This document shows positions 6,460-22,004 of a stretch of 27,470 nt of DNA, in pieces. This stretch comes from Promethearchaeota archaeon. GTDB taxonomy: Archaea > Asgardarchaeota > Lokiarchaeia > Sigyniarchaeales > SOKP01. The notes beneath the pieces are model-generated. The model did not search any database, was not told where the DNA came from, and saw only the letters and a program-made list of their open reading frames with translations. Where the stretch lies: contig JAHPZI010000002.1 of assembly GCA_019058295.1 (NCBI GenBank), forward strand, positions 156,176 through 183,645, written 5' to 3'. The position numbers and the translations under genes are program-made. Position 1 is the stretch's first letter. Each line of letters starts with the position of its first letter.

Positions 6460-7512
6460 TTAATTTCCAAAATCTATACTATAGGCACATTTCTCACACA
6501 GTTTAAGTTTCTTGTGCCTAATTAGTTTTTCCCGATAATATCGATACTTTTTGGAATTCCAAATATCCAAGAAATGCTGTTCATTCAGGTTACCAAATGT
6601 ATAAATACCATCATAGTCATAACAACATGCTCCAACTCTGCCATCCCATAAGATGACACACTTATGTTCCCAACTACAAAATATTGTAGGATTTATTAAC
6701 TCGAGTTTTCCATTCACATAATTATATCTCTTCGTCCCATTTTTTGGAAGATATTTTTCTACTAAATCTGAAACGGAATGATCATTGCGAAAACCTTGTG
6801 AGTGCAGAGGAAAGCAAATAGCTTTAAACCACACACCATCAACACCAATTTTATTCATTAACCAGTCATATATAGTCTGAAGCTGGTTCTCATTCTCTCG
6901 GCTAACGATAACCTCTGCCATAATCAGTGGAAAAGTCTTCTTCTGTTCCTTTTTCGCTTCACAAAGTTTTTTTACATGTTCTATTGTATTTTTGAAGTTA
7001 GCACCTGCTCTAAATTGCTCGAAAATAGTTGGATTTGCACTGTCTATACTGACAATAAGAAGATTTAATTGAGAATCCAAGATTTCCCAAATTTTTTGCT
7101 TATTAATTAAGGTGCTGTTTGTATCCACCACTGTAAAGATGTTATATTCAGCAGCATCCCTCACCATTTTGAAGAGTTTTGGATTAAGAAATGGCTCTCC
7201 AGCGAAGTTAAAATTGAAGACTATCGCAAACTTATGTACATCATCAAGAAGTTTTTGGTATGTTTTGTAATTCATCATACCTTGCTTTCTTGTCATGTAT
7301 TTGTGAGGCGTTGTACATAATGGGCATTTCAAGTTACAACCACAAATTGGCTCGATCATTATTGAGAGGGGAGTTTTAGCAACCTTGTAAGATATATATC
7401 TTCGTAATAAGCTGCCGCTTATCGAAGGATTGAAAAAAATATTATTTTTAATATAATATTTGATTATTGGGGCAATCCATTTTCGAAATATGGCCACGTA
7501 TTTTTCAGACAT
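6460..7512 (-). CDS. Radical SAM protein with C-terminal SPASM/twitch domain
   Basis: CxxxCxxC motif (CNLKCPLC), GEPFL, and the C-terminal C..WDGRVGACCYD..FGNL..IWNS..CEKC SPASM pattern. Confidence 0.92.
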   Translation of the reverse strand: MSEKYVAIFRKWIAPIIKYYIKNNIFFNPSISGSLLRRYISYKVAKTPLSIMIEPICGCNLKCPLCTTPHKYMTRKQGMMNYKTYQKLLDDVHKFAIVFNFNFAGEPFLNPKLFKMVRDAAEYNIFTVVDTNSTLINKQKIWEILDSQLNLLIVSIDSANPTIFEQFRAGANFKNTIEHVKKLCEAKKEQKKTFPLIMAEVIVSRENENQLQTIYDWLMNKIGVDGVWFKAICFPLHSQGFRNDHSVSDLVEKYLPKNGTKRYNYVNGKLELINPTIFCSWEHKCVILWDGRVGACCYDYDGIYTFGNLNEQHFLDIWNSKKYRYYREKLIRHKKLKLCEKCAYSIDFGN

Positions 7513-20563: not shown

Positions 20564-20709
20564 CTCAATTTAATAATTAAAGAAAAATAAAAATGAAGGT
20601 GCCCAAAAAAGGCCAGTTTAAATTAATAATTGAAATTTATTATCTAAATTGAATTAGACATAATTATCCTTTGAAAAATAAATCTAAGATTGATTTATTT
20701 CTAAATCAT

Positions 20710-20756
20710 AAAAAAAAAGAAAATTTAAAAAAAAATTTTATAAAAAAAATAAAAAA
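20710..20756 (-). terminator. Oligo-T tracts downstream of actin (archaeal-type terminator candidate)
   Basis: Several T5-T9 runs on the minus strand beginning about 40 nt after the restored actin stop (TAG 20800-20798). Confidence 0.45.
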
Positions 20757-20797
20757 TTATATATATTAAGGCATTTATCTCGGTTCTAAAAGCATCC

Positions 20798-22004
20798 CTA
20801 GAAGCAACGATGTATAACTTGAGGCCCCATCTCTTTGTATTCGTGAAGTTGGTAAAATCTTCCAACTTTTTCGCGACGAGTCACCCACATTTTTCACGAT
20901 TCAAGCGTTCTCGCTTGAAACTCTATGAAATGTTTTGAGTGACGAGAGAATTGAGCCGCCTATCCATACGGAATACATACGTTCTGGTGGTGCAATAATC
21001 TTTACATCAACAGACTCAGGGATTTGTTCTTTTATTTCCTTGGTCAATCTTTCTTTAATGCCTGGGAACATAGTAGAACCTCCAGAGAGCACTATATTGC
21101 TGTAGAGATCTCTTCTTAGGTCGACATCACACTCGGAAATAGCGCCTACGATAACATCATCTAAAGGCTCTAATTCTTTCCCGATTACTGATGGATTAAA
21201 TAAGCATTCAGGGCCTAGAAATCTTTCTACACCTACGTTAATTGTTTCACCATCAGGAAGCATGTAGCTCTTTTCCATTCCAGCTACTTTCTTGCTAAGC
21301 ATCATCTCCTTTTCAGGATCAATCGCTACATAACAAAGCTTCTCTTTGATGTCTCTAACTATTTCTTTCTCTGCCGAAGTAGTAAATGAATATCCTTTTT
21401 GTCTGAGTAATCTTTGTAAATATGTCGTTATATCTCTACCTGCTAGGTCTATTCTTTGGATGGCGTGACTTAAGGCGAAACCCTCGAAGATTGGTACAAC
21501 GTGGGAAACACCATCACCAATATCAATAACGCATCCAGTAGTACGACCAGAAGCATATAAAGACAATACCGCTTGCATAGCAACGTATAATGCTGGAGTG
21601 TTAAACGTCTCAAACATTATTTCAGCCATTTTTTCTCTGTTTGGCCTTGGATTTAATGGAGCTTCGGTTAAAAGTACTGGATGTTCACTAGGATCAATGC
21701 GCAAATCGGTGTAAAATGTGTAATGCCAGATCTTTTCCATTGCTGTCCAATCTTCAATGATACCATGCTCTACAGGGAACATTAGTTTTAAAACACCTTT
21801 GAGTTGCATTGCTTCTTCTCCAATGTAATACTCACGGGTATAATGTTCGACATCAGTCATTATGCTTTCATACTTAGGATAACCAATTAACGTTGGAAAT
21901 ACGGATCGAGGTTGATCCTCACCGGCAAATCCATTTTTAGAAATACCTGTACCATTGTCAACCACTAAGGCCTTAGCATTTAAAAAGCTTTCATCTTCTG
22001 CCAT
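20798..22004 (-). CDS. Asgard actin (Lokiactin), three exons: join(22004..20923,20891..20870,20839..20798) gives 381 aa
   Basis: Actin motifs [60 protein letters not shown] and [13 protein letters not shown]. The ORF track ends aberrantly in VSSENA*. The missing actin C-terminus [20 protein letters not shown] lies just downstream in another frame, interrupted by two hairpin inserts. Confidence 0.95.
20840..20869 (-). other. Putative BHB-type mRNA intron 2 in actin (30 nt, in-frame)
   Basis: Minus strand: GT CGCG AA^A AAGTTGG AAGATTTTA CCAACTT CACG AA^T AC. It has a 7-bp inner stem, a 4-bp helix CGCG/CACG (one C.A mismatch), two 3-nt bulges and outer pairs GU/AC. Excision gives CGC GAA TAC (R-E-Y). 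Confidence 0.75.
20892..20922 (-). other. Putative BHB-type mRNA intron 1 in actin (31 nt, frameshifting, contains in-frame TGA)
   Basis: Minus strand: ACATT TCAT AG^A GTTTCAAGCG AGAA CGCTTGAATC GTGA AA^A ATGT. It has a perfect 8-bp inner stem, a 4-bp helix UCAU/GUGA and bulges AGA and AAA. Excision gives CAT AGA ATG TGG (H-R-M-W). Confidence 0.85.

What the first reader, a model, noticed from the sequence alone, without database searches (positions are those of the whole stretch)
20892..20922. Actin intron 1: a 31-nt BHB insert that must be removed to make full-length Lokiactin
Unspliced, the ORF ends ...[11 protein letters not shown] because of a TGA inside the hairpin TTCAAGCG-AGAA-CGCTTGAA. 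It then lacks the 20-aa actin C-terminus, which corresponds to eukaryotic [21 protein letters not shown]. That terminus is intact downstream in another frame with its own TAG, and the rest of the gene shows no decay, which argues against a pseudogene. The helix UCAU/GUGA with bulges AGA and AAA predicts AG^A...AA^A, giving CAT AGA ATG TGG. Caveat: the exon-side helix pairs best with a 2-nt bulge (ACAUU/AAUGU), so the motif is a relaxed BHB, and the junction can slide by 1 nt without changing the product.
Basis: partly seen in the sequence, partly recalled or inferred. Interest (0 to 1): 0.93.

Follow-up and report, generated by a model that had tools for sequence, protein, structure and literature searches.

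The report
tRNA-type mini-intron in Asgard actin
The only actin gene found in this Asgard (Promethearchaeota/Loki-type) genome is broken near its end by a 31-base hairpin insert shaped like the introns archaea cut out of tRNAs. Its messenger RNA almost certainly has to be cut and re-joined to make full-length actin, something published for only one other archaeal protein gene (cbf5).

Summary
The actin ORF (22004..20901, minus strand) stops at a TGA inside a hairpin, and the last 20 actin residues lie downstream in another frame.

About 130 related genomes carry ...KTFHR|[20 protein letters not shown] without interruption. That defines an exact 31-nt insert (20922..20892) and a second 30-nt insert (20869..20840) only 22 nt further on.

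- **Fit to a tRNA-type intron:** Of the two junction registers the alignment allows, one is the best bulge-helix-bulge (BHB) register out of 31 tried: UCAU AG^A ... GUGA AA^A. The exon-side helix is out of register, so the motif is relaxed (HBh' type).
- **Same class elsewhere:** Inserts of 29-33 nt with the same geometry sit at three other actin positions in four other genera. Four more G000 genes carry them (iorB, a GH57 enzyme, a ferredoxin-type protein, a thiolase-like protein). Each has intron-less alleles in close relatives, and some are conserved across species.
- **Machinery:** The genome encodes two EndA paralogs. RtcB was found in five relatives but not in this 79%-complete genome.
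- **Rivals excluded or weakened:** Simple frameshifting is excluded, and translational bypass does not fit.
- **DNA and RNA:** An independent assembly of the DNA reads contains the insert. One metatranscriptome contig with this strain's flanks lacks both inserts. That is suggestive, not proof.

This scan has already noted such introns in other Asgard genomes. I found no paper describing them.

The parts
20923..22004 (-). Actin exon 1 (1082 nt; codons 1-360 plus CATAG)
   Evidence: ORF. Pfam Actin E 1.8e-122. 100% amino-acid identity to G007 actin residues 1-362.
20892..20922 (-). Intron 1, 31 nt (the finding). The register can slide by 1 nt without changing the product.
   Evidence: Absent from about 130 orthologues. 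Present in an independent assembly of the DNA reads. Best BHB register equals a junction-consistent register.
20925..20928 (-). Central BHB helix, exon strand UCAU; it pairs with GUGA (20897-20894)
   Evidence: 4 of 4 pairs, one of them U-G.
20922..20924 (-). 5' bulge AGA; predicted cut between 20923 and 20922
   Evidence: All 11 inserts of the class have the 5' bulge A-N-^A.
20898..20921 (-). Inner helix h' with loop: G-C, a U.U mismatch, then 8 bp UUCAAGCG/CGCUUGAA, loop AGAA. It contains the TGA (20903-20901) that closes the unspliced frame.
20894..20897 (-). Central BHB helix, intron strand GUGA
20891..20893 (-). 3' bulge AAA; predicted cut between 20892 and 20891. It is closed by only 1 bp in the strict register, so the motif is relaxed.
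20936..20943 (-). Distal exon-exon clamp GUCACUCA, pairing with UGGGUGAC (20887-20880)
   Evidence: Present in both the minimum-free-energy fold and the BHB-constrained fold.
20870..20891 (-). 22-nt micro-exon (A ATG TGG GTG ACT CGT CGC GAA = (R)MWVTRRE)
20840..20869 (-). Intron 2, 30 nt, in frame and without a stop: CGCG AA^A AAGUUGG..CCAACUU CACG AA^U
   Evidence: Absent from orthologues. Homologous inserts at the same site in G015 (31 nt, frame-shifting) and G017 (33 nt).
20798..20839 (-). Exon 3 ([13 protein letters not shown] plus TAG)
17374..17404 (-). 31-nt insert of the same class in iorB, between ...FGSE and MHGLAQREG (register ambiguous by up to 3 nt)
   Evidence: The Pfam POR profile starts at position 29 of 173 at residue 2 of the downstream ORF. 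The insert is identical in G007 and absent in G001, G002, G003 and G006.

Best explanation
Window 20922..20892 is a 31-nt archaeal (tRNA-type, endonuclease-spliced) mini-intron in the pre-mRNA of the genome's Lokiactin-type actin.

Proposed mechanism:
1. In the transcript, the last six exon-1 nucleotides (UCAU+AG), the intron hairpin and the intron's 3' end (GUGA+AA) form a relaxed bulge-helix-bulge (HBh'-type) motif. A distal 8-bp exon-exon helix holds it together.
2. The two-subunit splicing endonuclease EndA cuts at AG^A and AA^A.
3. An RtcB-type ligase joins the exons to give ...CAT AGA ATG TGG...
4. The neighbouring 30-nt intron 2 is removed in the same way, and the mRNA then encodes a 381-aa actin identical to that of the sister species.

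Shown here: the insert is real DNA, its boundaries are exact, the geometry fits, a whole class of such inserts exists, and EndA is present.

Inferred: that cleavage and ligation actually occur at these sites, and that EndA and RtcB are the enzymes.
For: 1. **Exact insertion.** Nearly all of 134 genomes of the order with an actin match, and the 80 best loci from genome contigs, have the uninterrupted ...[25 protein letters not shown]000 matches only residues 1-362.

2. **Geometry.** Central helix UCAU/GUGA pairs 4 of 4, the 5' bulge is AGA, and the inner helix has 9 of 10 pairs. The structurally best register of 31 is one of the two registers allowed by the alignment. The BHB-constrained fold is 2.9 kcal/mol above the minimum free energy.

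3. **A class of such inserts.** Eleven inserts of 29-33 nt were analysed. In 10 of them the best BHB register is junction-consistent (nominal combined p about 1e-10; several are homologous, so this overstates). All have the 5' bulge A-N-^A.
   - Actin, other genomes: G015 and G017 at the intron-2 site, with different helix sequences; G017 and G021 before IHRCF; G153 at codon 89/90, with two in-frame stops.
   - Other G000 genes: a GH57 enzyme, a ferredoxin-type protein (a canonical hBHBh' that is also the minimum-free-energy fold), iorB, and a thiolase-like gene. All have intron-less alleles in the same genus. The iorB insert is shared with G007, and the thiolase-like insert with G007 and G002.

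4. **Purifying selection.** There are 92 synonymous and 0 non-synonymous codon differences from G007, including 15 versus 0 after intron 1.

5. **Enzymes.** Two EndA paralogs of 201 aa are present. By my reading of the sequences, one keeps the catalytic His and the other lacks it. Asgard EndA is reported as the (alpha-beta)2 type with the L1 loop, which confers broad specificity for relaxed BHB motifs (PMC5829648). RtcB is present in 5 of 5 relatives searched, including the intron-bearing G015 and G017.

6. **DNA.** An independent Logan contig of the source run holds the insert at depth about 18 and shows no joined form.

7. **RNA.** A 234-nt metatranscriptome contig (run X3, depth 12.7) is identical to the window over 183 nt upstream of intron 1 and 33 nt of exon 3. 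Both flanks include the strain-specific tract that no reference shares. It reads ...CATAGA-ATGTGGGTGACCCGTCGT-GAATAC..., so it lacks both inserts.
Against: - No RNA from the same sample was laid. The X3 contig differs at 2 of 18 micro-exon bases, so it could be the transcript of an intron-less conspecific allele rather than spliced RNA.
- The 3' bulge is not closed by a canonical outer helix. The minimum-free-energy fold pairs part of both splice sites.
- Intron 1 was found in no other genome, metagenome contig or protein record, so this intron has no covariation or conservation evidence of its own.
- RtcB was not found in G000, which is 79% complete.
- A motif-plus-ORF scan of the whole genome gave no more candidates than frame-shifted controls. 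The additional examples came from manual curation.
Confidence: 0.8

Rival explanations
1. The insert is a recent disabling insertion. The gene is a fresh pseudogene, or it makes a C-terminally truncated actin ending VSSENA, and nothing removes the 31 nt.
For: Intron 1 is unique to this genome. Its BHB is relaxed. The genome is only 79% complete, so a second intact actin could be unassembled; some relatives do carry a second copy at 82-85% identity. Synonymous-only divergence cannot date the insertion.
Against: - Two separate inserts in one gene both have splice-competent geometry whose register reproduces the orthologous junction exactly.
- Inserts of the same class persist across species and genera in conserved genes although they shift frame or carry stops.
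- The sister G007 (99% complete) has a single Lokiactin-type copy.
- The actin sits at the syntenic locus.
- An RNA contig with this allele's flanks lacks both inserts.
Confidence: 0.08
2. The insert stays in the mRNA and the ribosome recodes around it, either by programmed frameshifting or by translational bypass (hopping), as in T4 gene 60 or the byp elements of Magnusiomyces mitochondria.
For: A stable hairpin sits at the site and the gap length (31 nt) is in the range of known bypass elements (my own knowledge). Intron 2 has identical GAA codons at both ends.
Against: - The actin frame stops at TGA 20903-20901, before the target frame opens; the last stop in the target frame is TGA 20896-20894. 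No single frameshift can therefore link them.
- For a hop, the take-off codon AGA (20924-20922) and the landing codon AAA (20893-20891) do not match, and no stop follows the take-off codon.
- G015 and G017 at position 2 have no boundary repeat at all, and intron 1 has only 1 nt, yet all share the BHB geometry.
Confidence: 0.04
3. Assembly or population artefact: the contig is chimeric, or the insert is present in only part of the population or is removed at the DNA level.
For: The last 85 nt of the coding sequence and about 205 nt of 3' flank are far more diverged from the sister species than the rest (31-33% against 6.9%). A chimeric join could look like that.
Against: An independent assembler (Logan) gives the identical sequence over 20600-21522, spanning both tract boundaries, with no joined form in that DNA run. 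Similarity to G007 resumes on both sides of the tract, so a chimera would need two joins. The X3 RNA contig shares the same upstream boundary.
Confidence: 0.03

Closest known systems
BHB intron in the cbf5 pre-mRNA of Crenarchaeota (Watanabe 2002; Yoshinari 2006; Yokobori 2009, PMC2738675)
   Same: A short intron inside a protein-coding gene, bounded by a bulge-helix-bulge motif and linked to a hetero-oligomeric splicing endonuclease. It is patchily distributed among related species (gain and loss), and gene callers mis-annotate the gene as truncated or frameshifted.
   Different: The host gene (actin) and lineage (Promethearchaeota, Asgard) are different. Here two introns lie 22 nt apart and define a micro-exon. 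The motif is relaxed on the 3' side. At least four further genes of the same genome carry such inserts. Splicing is not shown experimentally here.
Non-canonical tRNA introns of Asgard and TACK archaea with relaxed BHB motifs (HBh', hBH), cut by (alpha-beta)2 EndA with the L1 loop (PMC5829648; bioRxiv 10.64898/2026.10.13.758758)
   Same: The geometry and the size range match: ARAGORN calls tRNA introns of 13-54 nt in this genome, plus one outlier. The presumed enzymes are the same. Gains look repeated and lineage-specific.
   Different: The substrate is an mRNA. No tRNA body helps recognition, and the exon half of the motif has to be built from codons.
Unconventional cytoplasmic splicing of HAC1/XBP1 mRNA by IRE1 plus a tRNA ligase (RtcB in animals); from my own knowledge
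   Same: It works alike: an endonuclease and a tRNA ligase remove a tiny intron (26 nt in XBP1) near the 3' end, which shifts the frame and swaps the C-terminus of the protein.
   Different: The endonuclease and the recognition motif differ (twin stem-loops, not BHB). That system is a regulated stress switch, and no regulation is shown here. This is not a membership claim.
Translational bypass elements (T4 gene 60; byps of Magnusiomyces mitochondria); from my own knowledge
   Same: Short hairpin-containing inserts in coding sequence that must be skipped to make the protein.
   Different: They need matching take-off and landing codons and stay in the mRNA. Those features are absent here.

Membership tests
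Archaeal BHB (EndA-spliced) intron in a pre-mRNA | Extra sequence relative to orthologues, with exact boundaries whose removal restores the orthologous protein | tested here: met
   A 31-nt insert sits between CATAGA and ATGTGG. The spliced product is identical to the 381-aa actin of G007.
Archaeal BHB (EndA-spliced) intron in a pre-mRNA | A 4-bp central helix with a 3-nt bulge on its 3' side on each strand, and cuts after bulge nucleotide 2 | tested here: met
   UCAU/GUGA pairs 4 of 4, with bulges AGA and AAA. This register is the best of 31 and is one of the 2 that fit the junction.
Archaeal BHB (EndA-spliced) intron in a pre-mRNA | Both flanking helices present (canonical hBHBh') | tested here: not met
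   The inner helix h' is present (G-C, U.U, 8 bp). The outer helix h closes the 3' bulge with only 1 bp in register. A 5-bp alternative needs a 2-nt bulge, and an 8-bp clamp lies further out. The motif therefore fits the relaxed HBh' type, not the canonical one.
Archaeal BHB (EndA-spliced) intron in a pre-mRNA | The host encodes a splicing endonuclease able to cut relaxed motifs | tested here: met
   Two PF01974 paralogs of 201 aa. One has the HSPF His and the other lacks it; the alpha/beta assignment is my inference. The (alpha-beta)2 type with L1 loop is reported for Asgard in PMC5829648.
Archaeal BHB (EndA-spliced) intron in a pre-mRNA | An RNA ligase (RtcB) is available to join the exons | tested here: inconclusive
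   Not found in G000, which is 79% complete. Found in 5 of 5 relatives.
Archaeal BHB (EndA-spliced) intron in a pre-mRNA | Spliced RNA that lacks exactly the intron | tested here: inconclusive
   The X3 RNA contig has identical flanks (183 and 33 nt) and lacks both inserts. It has 2 synonymous differences in the micro-exon and comes from another study, and the DNA state of that strain is unknown.
Archaeal BHB (EndA-spliced) intron in a pre-mRNA | Helices maintained by compensatory change among homologous introns | not testable with these tools
   No second copy of intron 1 was found. At the intron-2 site the inner helices differ while the geometry is kept: GUUGG/CCAAC, GAGG/CCUC, and CCGA..GAGAU/AUCUC..UCGG.
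Programmed ribosomal frameshift site | The zero frame and the target frame are both open over a shared stretch | tested here: not met
   The zero frame stops at 20903-20901. The target frame still has a stop at 20896-20894.
Translational bypass element | Matching take-off and landing codons | tested here: not met
   AGA against AAA for intron 1. Two inserts of the class have no boundary repeat at all.
Actin (Lokiactin-type, PF00022) | Full-length match to the family, including the C-terminal MW...HRCF segment | tested here: met
   Pfam Actin E 1.8e-122 over residues 10-362. The C-terminus is recovered only after removal of both inserts.

The most novel reading that the evidence does not exclude
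The two actin introns arrived together, as part of a cassette of about 355 bp (window about 20592-20946) acquired by recombination from a different Promethearchaeota lineage. On this reading, tRNA-type mini-introns spread between Asgard lineages by homing-like co-conversion of flanking exon sequence without any intron-encoded endonuclease. Their position in the last 60 nt of the gene would make production of full-length actin depend on EndA/RtcB activity, an XBP1/HAC1-like gate on the cytoskeleton of a eukaryote relative.
Probability: 0.15. Interest if true: 0.92.

Novelty: new member of a known kind. Interest (0 to 1): 0.8.

Why it matters
Published work confirms endonuclease-type mRNA splicing in archaea for one gene only (cbf5, in Crenarchaeota). 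Here it would be needed for actin, a signature eukaryote-like protein, in the archaeal group closest to eukaryotes. The gene carries two introns and a 22-nt micro-exon, and at least four other genes of the same genome are split in the same way.

- **Annotation:** gene callers truncate or split these genes, which distorts protein sets and possibly completeness estimates.
- **Biology:** mRNA splicing has to compete with coupled translation.
- **Intron evolution:** relatives of eukaryotes already tolerate interrupted protein genes through a protein-only splicing pathway.

The predictions are easy to test by RT-PCR, by circular-RNA sequencing, and by in vitro cleavage with recombinant EndA.

Tried and rejected
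- **Metagenome scans:** a degenerate pattern for any 29-37-nt insert at the HR|MW site and the exact core of intron 1 both gave 0 hits.
- **Protein search on the C-terminal region:** none of the best 120 proteins carries the VSSENA tail, and all have intact C-termini.
- **Exact look-up of the truncated 367-aa ORF:** only the window's own contig holds it.
- **blastn-short of the three window inserts against the whole genome:** only self hits, so they are not copies of a repeated mobile element.
- **Genome-wide BHB-plus-ORF scan:** 6614 candidates against 6607-6832 in frame-shifted controls, and 49 against 53-57 after length and bulge filters. There is no statistical enrichment, because boundaries between neighbouring genes swamp the signal. 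The true cases were picked by eye and then checked. One candidate (uvrC, C13) was rejected because its downstream frame simply continues upstream.
- **Rfam on 20700-21050:** nothing meaningful.
- **ARAGORN on the window:** no tRNA genes.
- **RtcB in G000:** not found.
- **RNA runs X6 and X7:** they yielded only contigs of related strains, whose loose ends read intron-less sequence with other synonymous sites. They say nothing about G000.
- **Unspliced form in X3:** no RNA contig of the unspliced form was seen, but absence of cover is not evidence.
- **Spliceosomal or self-splicing introns:** not pursued, because 31 nt is far too small for group I or II introns and the insert does not end in AG.

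Full report
**What is in the sequence**

On the minus strand, an ORF of 367 codons (22004..20901) matches Pfam Actin at E 1.8e-122 over residues 10-362. It ends ...[13 protein letters not shown]. The TGA (20903-20901) lies in the 3' arm of a perfect 8-bp hairpin, UUCAAGCG-AGAA-CGCUUGAA. A 30-codon frame follows (20890..20798) and reads [30 protein letters not shown]. The 76-nt stretch around the insert folds at -26 kcal/mol, against -15.3 +/- 2.9 for shuffles (z -3.7).

**The insert is defined exactly by relatives**

The genome (G000: 3.2 Mb, 30 contigs, 79% complete) has one Lokiactin-type gene and one 38%-identical paralogue. Record titles of the closest loci name Promethearchaeota (Loki-type Asgard) MAGs.

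Forty relatives all match residues 1-362 and then diverge from the window. Read in DNA, nearly all continue ...TTYCAYMGN ATG TGG GTN ACN MGN MGN GAR TAY AAR GAR ATG GGN CCN CAR GTN ATH CAY MGN TGY TTY stop. With the intron-less 381-aa actin of G007 as query, 134 of 154 genomes of the order have a match. Almost all matches cover residues 1-381, as do the best 80 loci from 185,579 species genomes.

The window therefore carries two extra pieces:
- 31 nt between CATAGA and ATGTGG (20922..20892, the finding);
- 30 nt between CGCGAA and TACAAA (20869..20840).

They are separated by a 22-nt micro-exon. Removing both in silico gives a 381-aa protein identical to that of G007.

**The insert is real DNA**

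A contig made by a different assembler (Logan) from the probable source run covers 20600-21522 with no difference, at depth about 18. No joined form appears in that DNA run.

**Geometry**

I used the geometry of archaeal pre-tRNA. The central 4-bp helix lies 5' of each 3-nt bulge, and each cut falls after the second bulge nucleotide. Intron 1 then reads:

caaaacauu UCAU AG^A [G UUUCAAGCG AGAA CGCUUGAAU C] GUGA AA^A augugggu

- The central helix pairs 4 of 4.
- The inner helix has 9 of 10 pairs.
- The outer helix gives only 1 bp in register. A 5-bp alternative (ACAUU/AAUGU) needs a 2-nt bulge. An 8-bp exon-exon clamp, GUCACUCA/UGGGUGAC, lies further out.

This is a relaxed HBh'-type motif, not a canonical hBHBh'. 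The BHB-constrained fold costs 2.9 kcal/mol over the minimum free energy.

The alignment to intron-less genes allows only 2 of the 31 registers tried, and the structurally best register is one of those two.

**It belongs to a class**

| Insert | Where | Length | Feature |
|---|---|---|---|
| Actin, intron-2 site | G015 | 31 nt | frame-shifting; inner helix GAGG/CCUC |
| Actin, intron-2 site | G017 | 33 nt | central helix CGCG/CGCG, perfect |
| Actin, before IHRCF | G017, G021 | 31 nt each | third actin position |
| Actin, codon 89/90 | G153 | 30 nt | two in-frame stops; perfect central helix and 9-bp inner helix |
| GH57 glucan-branching-type enzyme | G000 C1:112064-112035 | 30 nt | absent in G007, G002, G006, G003 |
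| Ferredoxin-type protein | G000 C17:37757-37729 | 29 nt | splits CVVACA from EGAL; canonical hBHBh' that is also the minimum-free-energy fold; absent in G007, G006, G001 |
| iorB | window 17404-17374 | 31 nt | identical in G007; absent in four other species of the genus |
| Thiolase/HMG-CoA-synthase-like gene | G000 C7:54449-54478 | 30 nt | shared with G007 and, with 2 changes, G002; absent in G003 and G001 |

Over all 11 inserts, the best BHB register is junction-consistent in 10. The nominal combined p is about 1e-10. Several inserts are homologous, so this figure overstates the evidence. Every 5' bulge reads A-N-^A.

Inserts that shift the frame or carry stops, yet persist across species in proteins that are 90-100% conserved, must be removed before or during decoding.

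**Which removal mechanism**

- *Frameshifting:* a single ribosomal frameshift is impossible for intron 1. The actin frame closes at 20903-20901, before the target frame opens; its last stop is at 20896-20894.
- *Translational bypass:* it needs matching take-off and landing codons. Here they are AGA and AAA. Two inserts of the class have no boundary repeat at all.
- *Repeated element:* the inserts have no other copies in the genome and match no Rfam family.
- *Endonuclease splicing:* the genome encodes two 201-aa EndA paralogs. One has the catalytic His context and one lacks it. By my inference this is the alpha/beta pair that PMC5829648 reports for Asgard archaea, together with the L1 loop that confers activity on relaxed motifs. 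RtcB was not found in this incomplete genome but is present in all five relatives searched. ARAGORN tRNA genes and reports an intron in 10 of them (one is an implausible 2,114-nt call), most of 13-54 nt, so the machinery is in routine use.

**RNA evidence**

Four runs were laid. In metatranscriptome X3, from a different study, a 234-nt contig of depth 12.7 matches the window exactly from 21104 to 20922. It then reads ATGTGGGTGACCCGTCGT and continues exactly from 20842 for 33 nt. Both inserts are therefore absent.

No reference genome is closer than 95.6% over the upstream part, and none contains this micro-exon variant. Both flanks include the strain-specific tract described below. The contig thus comes from the G000 lineage.

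It differs from the window at two synonymous micro-exon positions (ACT>ACC, CGC>CGT). The second change would turn the C.A mismatch in the central helix of intron 2 into a U-A pair. The contig is either spliced mRNA of a sister strain or the transcript of an intron-less allele. I count it as suggestive only.

**Selection and an unexplained mosaic**

Against G007, the spliced coding sequence has 92 synonymous and 0 non-synonymous codon differences, and 15 versus 0 after intron 1.

Divergence from the sister species is 6.9% over coding positions 1-1058 but 31-33% over the last 85 nt (Fisher p about 9e-10). That last part is closest to genus g8 (G016: 12%, against 20% over the rest of the gene). 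Similarity to G007 resumes at window 20591.

About 355 bp, containing both introns, thus looks like a replaced cassette. Whether intron gain and the recombination tract are causally linked is open.

**Comparison with what is known**

The closest documented case is the cbf5 pre-mRNA intron of Crenarchaeota (PMC2738675). That paper states that no other archaeal pre-mRNA splicing had been confirmed.

Seven full-text searches found no paper on BHB introns in Asgard protein genes, and none that combines Lokiactin with intron. A 2026 preprint documents heavily interrupted Asgard tRNA genes only.

Notes of this scan report the same kind of mini-intron in protein genes of many other Asgard genomes. 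Within the scan this is a repeated observation, here in a new and conspicuous host gene.

**Verdict**

- The best explanation is a relaxed-BHB mini-intron removed by EndA and a ligase (confidence 0.8).
- It is a new member of a known kind.
- Experimental proof of splicing is still missing.

Noticed in passing
window 20840-20869 (-): A second, 30-nt in-frame insert (intron 2) lies 22 nt after intron 1. If retained it would add [10 protein letters not shown] to the actin C-terminus. Homologous inserts at the same site in G015 (31 nt, frame-shifting) and G017 (33 nt) show that removal is the norm.
   Followed up: yes
window 17374-17404 (-): iorB is split between ...FGSE and MHGLAQREG by a 31-nt insert with an in-frame TAA and BHB geometry. 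The insert is identical in G007 and absent in four other species of the genus.
   Followed up: yes
window about 20592-20946: Mosaic tract. The last 85 nt of the actin coding sequence, both introns and about 205 nt of 3' flank are 31-33% diverged from the sister species, against 6.9% for the rest of the gene, and are closest to another genus (G016). This looks like a cassette replaced by recombination.
   Followed up: partly
G000 C1:112035-112064 (-), C17:37729-37757 (-), C7:54449-54478 (+) (loci L039, L038, L040): Three more 29-30-nt BHB-type inserts in protein genes of the same genome: a GH57 enzyme, a ferredoxin-type protein (canonical hBHBh') and a thiolase/HMG-CoA-synthase-like gene. Each has intron-less alleles in the same genus. 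The third is shared with G007 and G002.
   Followed up: yes
L134:79-107 (G006 C13, about 33458-33486): In the same-genus genome G006, the RNA ligase gene rtcB is itself split between GGVGY and DINCG by a 29-nt canonical BHB insert (UUGG AU^A CAUAAAAG..CUUUUAUG CCAA AA^A). The ligase presumably needed for this splicing would then depend on it.
   Followed up: partly
L032 (G153 C140), actin codon 89/90: A 30-nt insert with two in-frame stops (IQILA*RI*A), a perfect central helix GGCU/AGCU and a 9-bp inner helix. It is an actin intron far from the 3' end.
   Followed up: yes
L004 (G005 C96), actin codon 70: An in-frame TGA replaces the conserved Gly70 codon (GGT) in an otherwise 100%-identical actin. 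It may be a sequencing error or a real nonsense change.
   Followed up: no
Pairing between them would compete with both BHB motifs.
   Followed up: no
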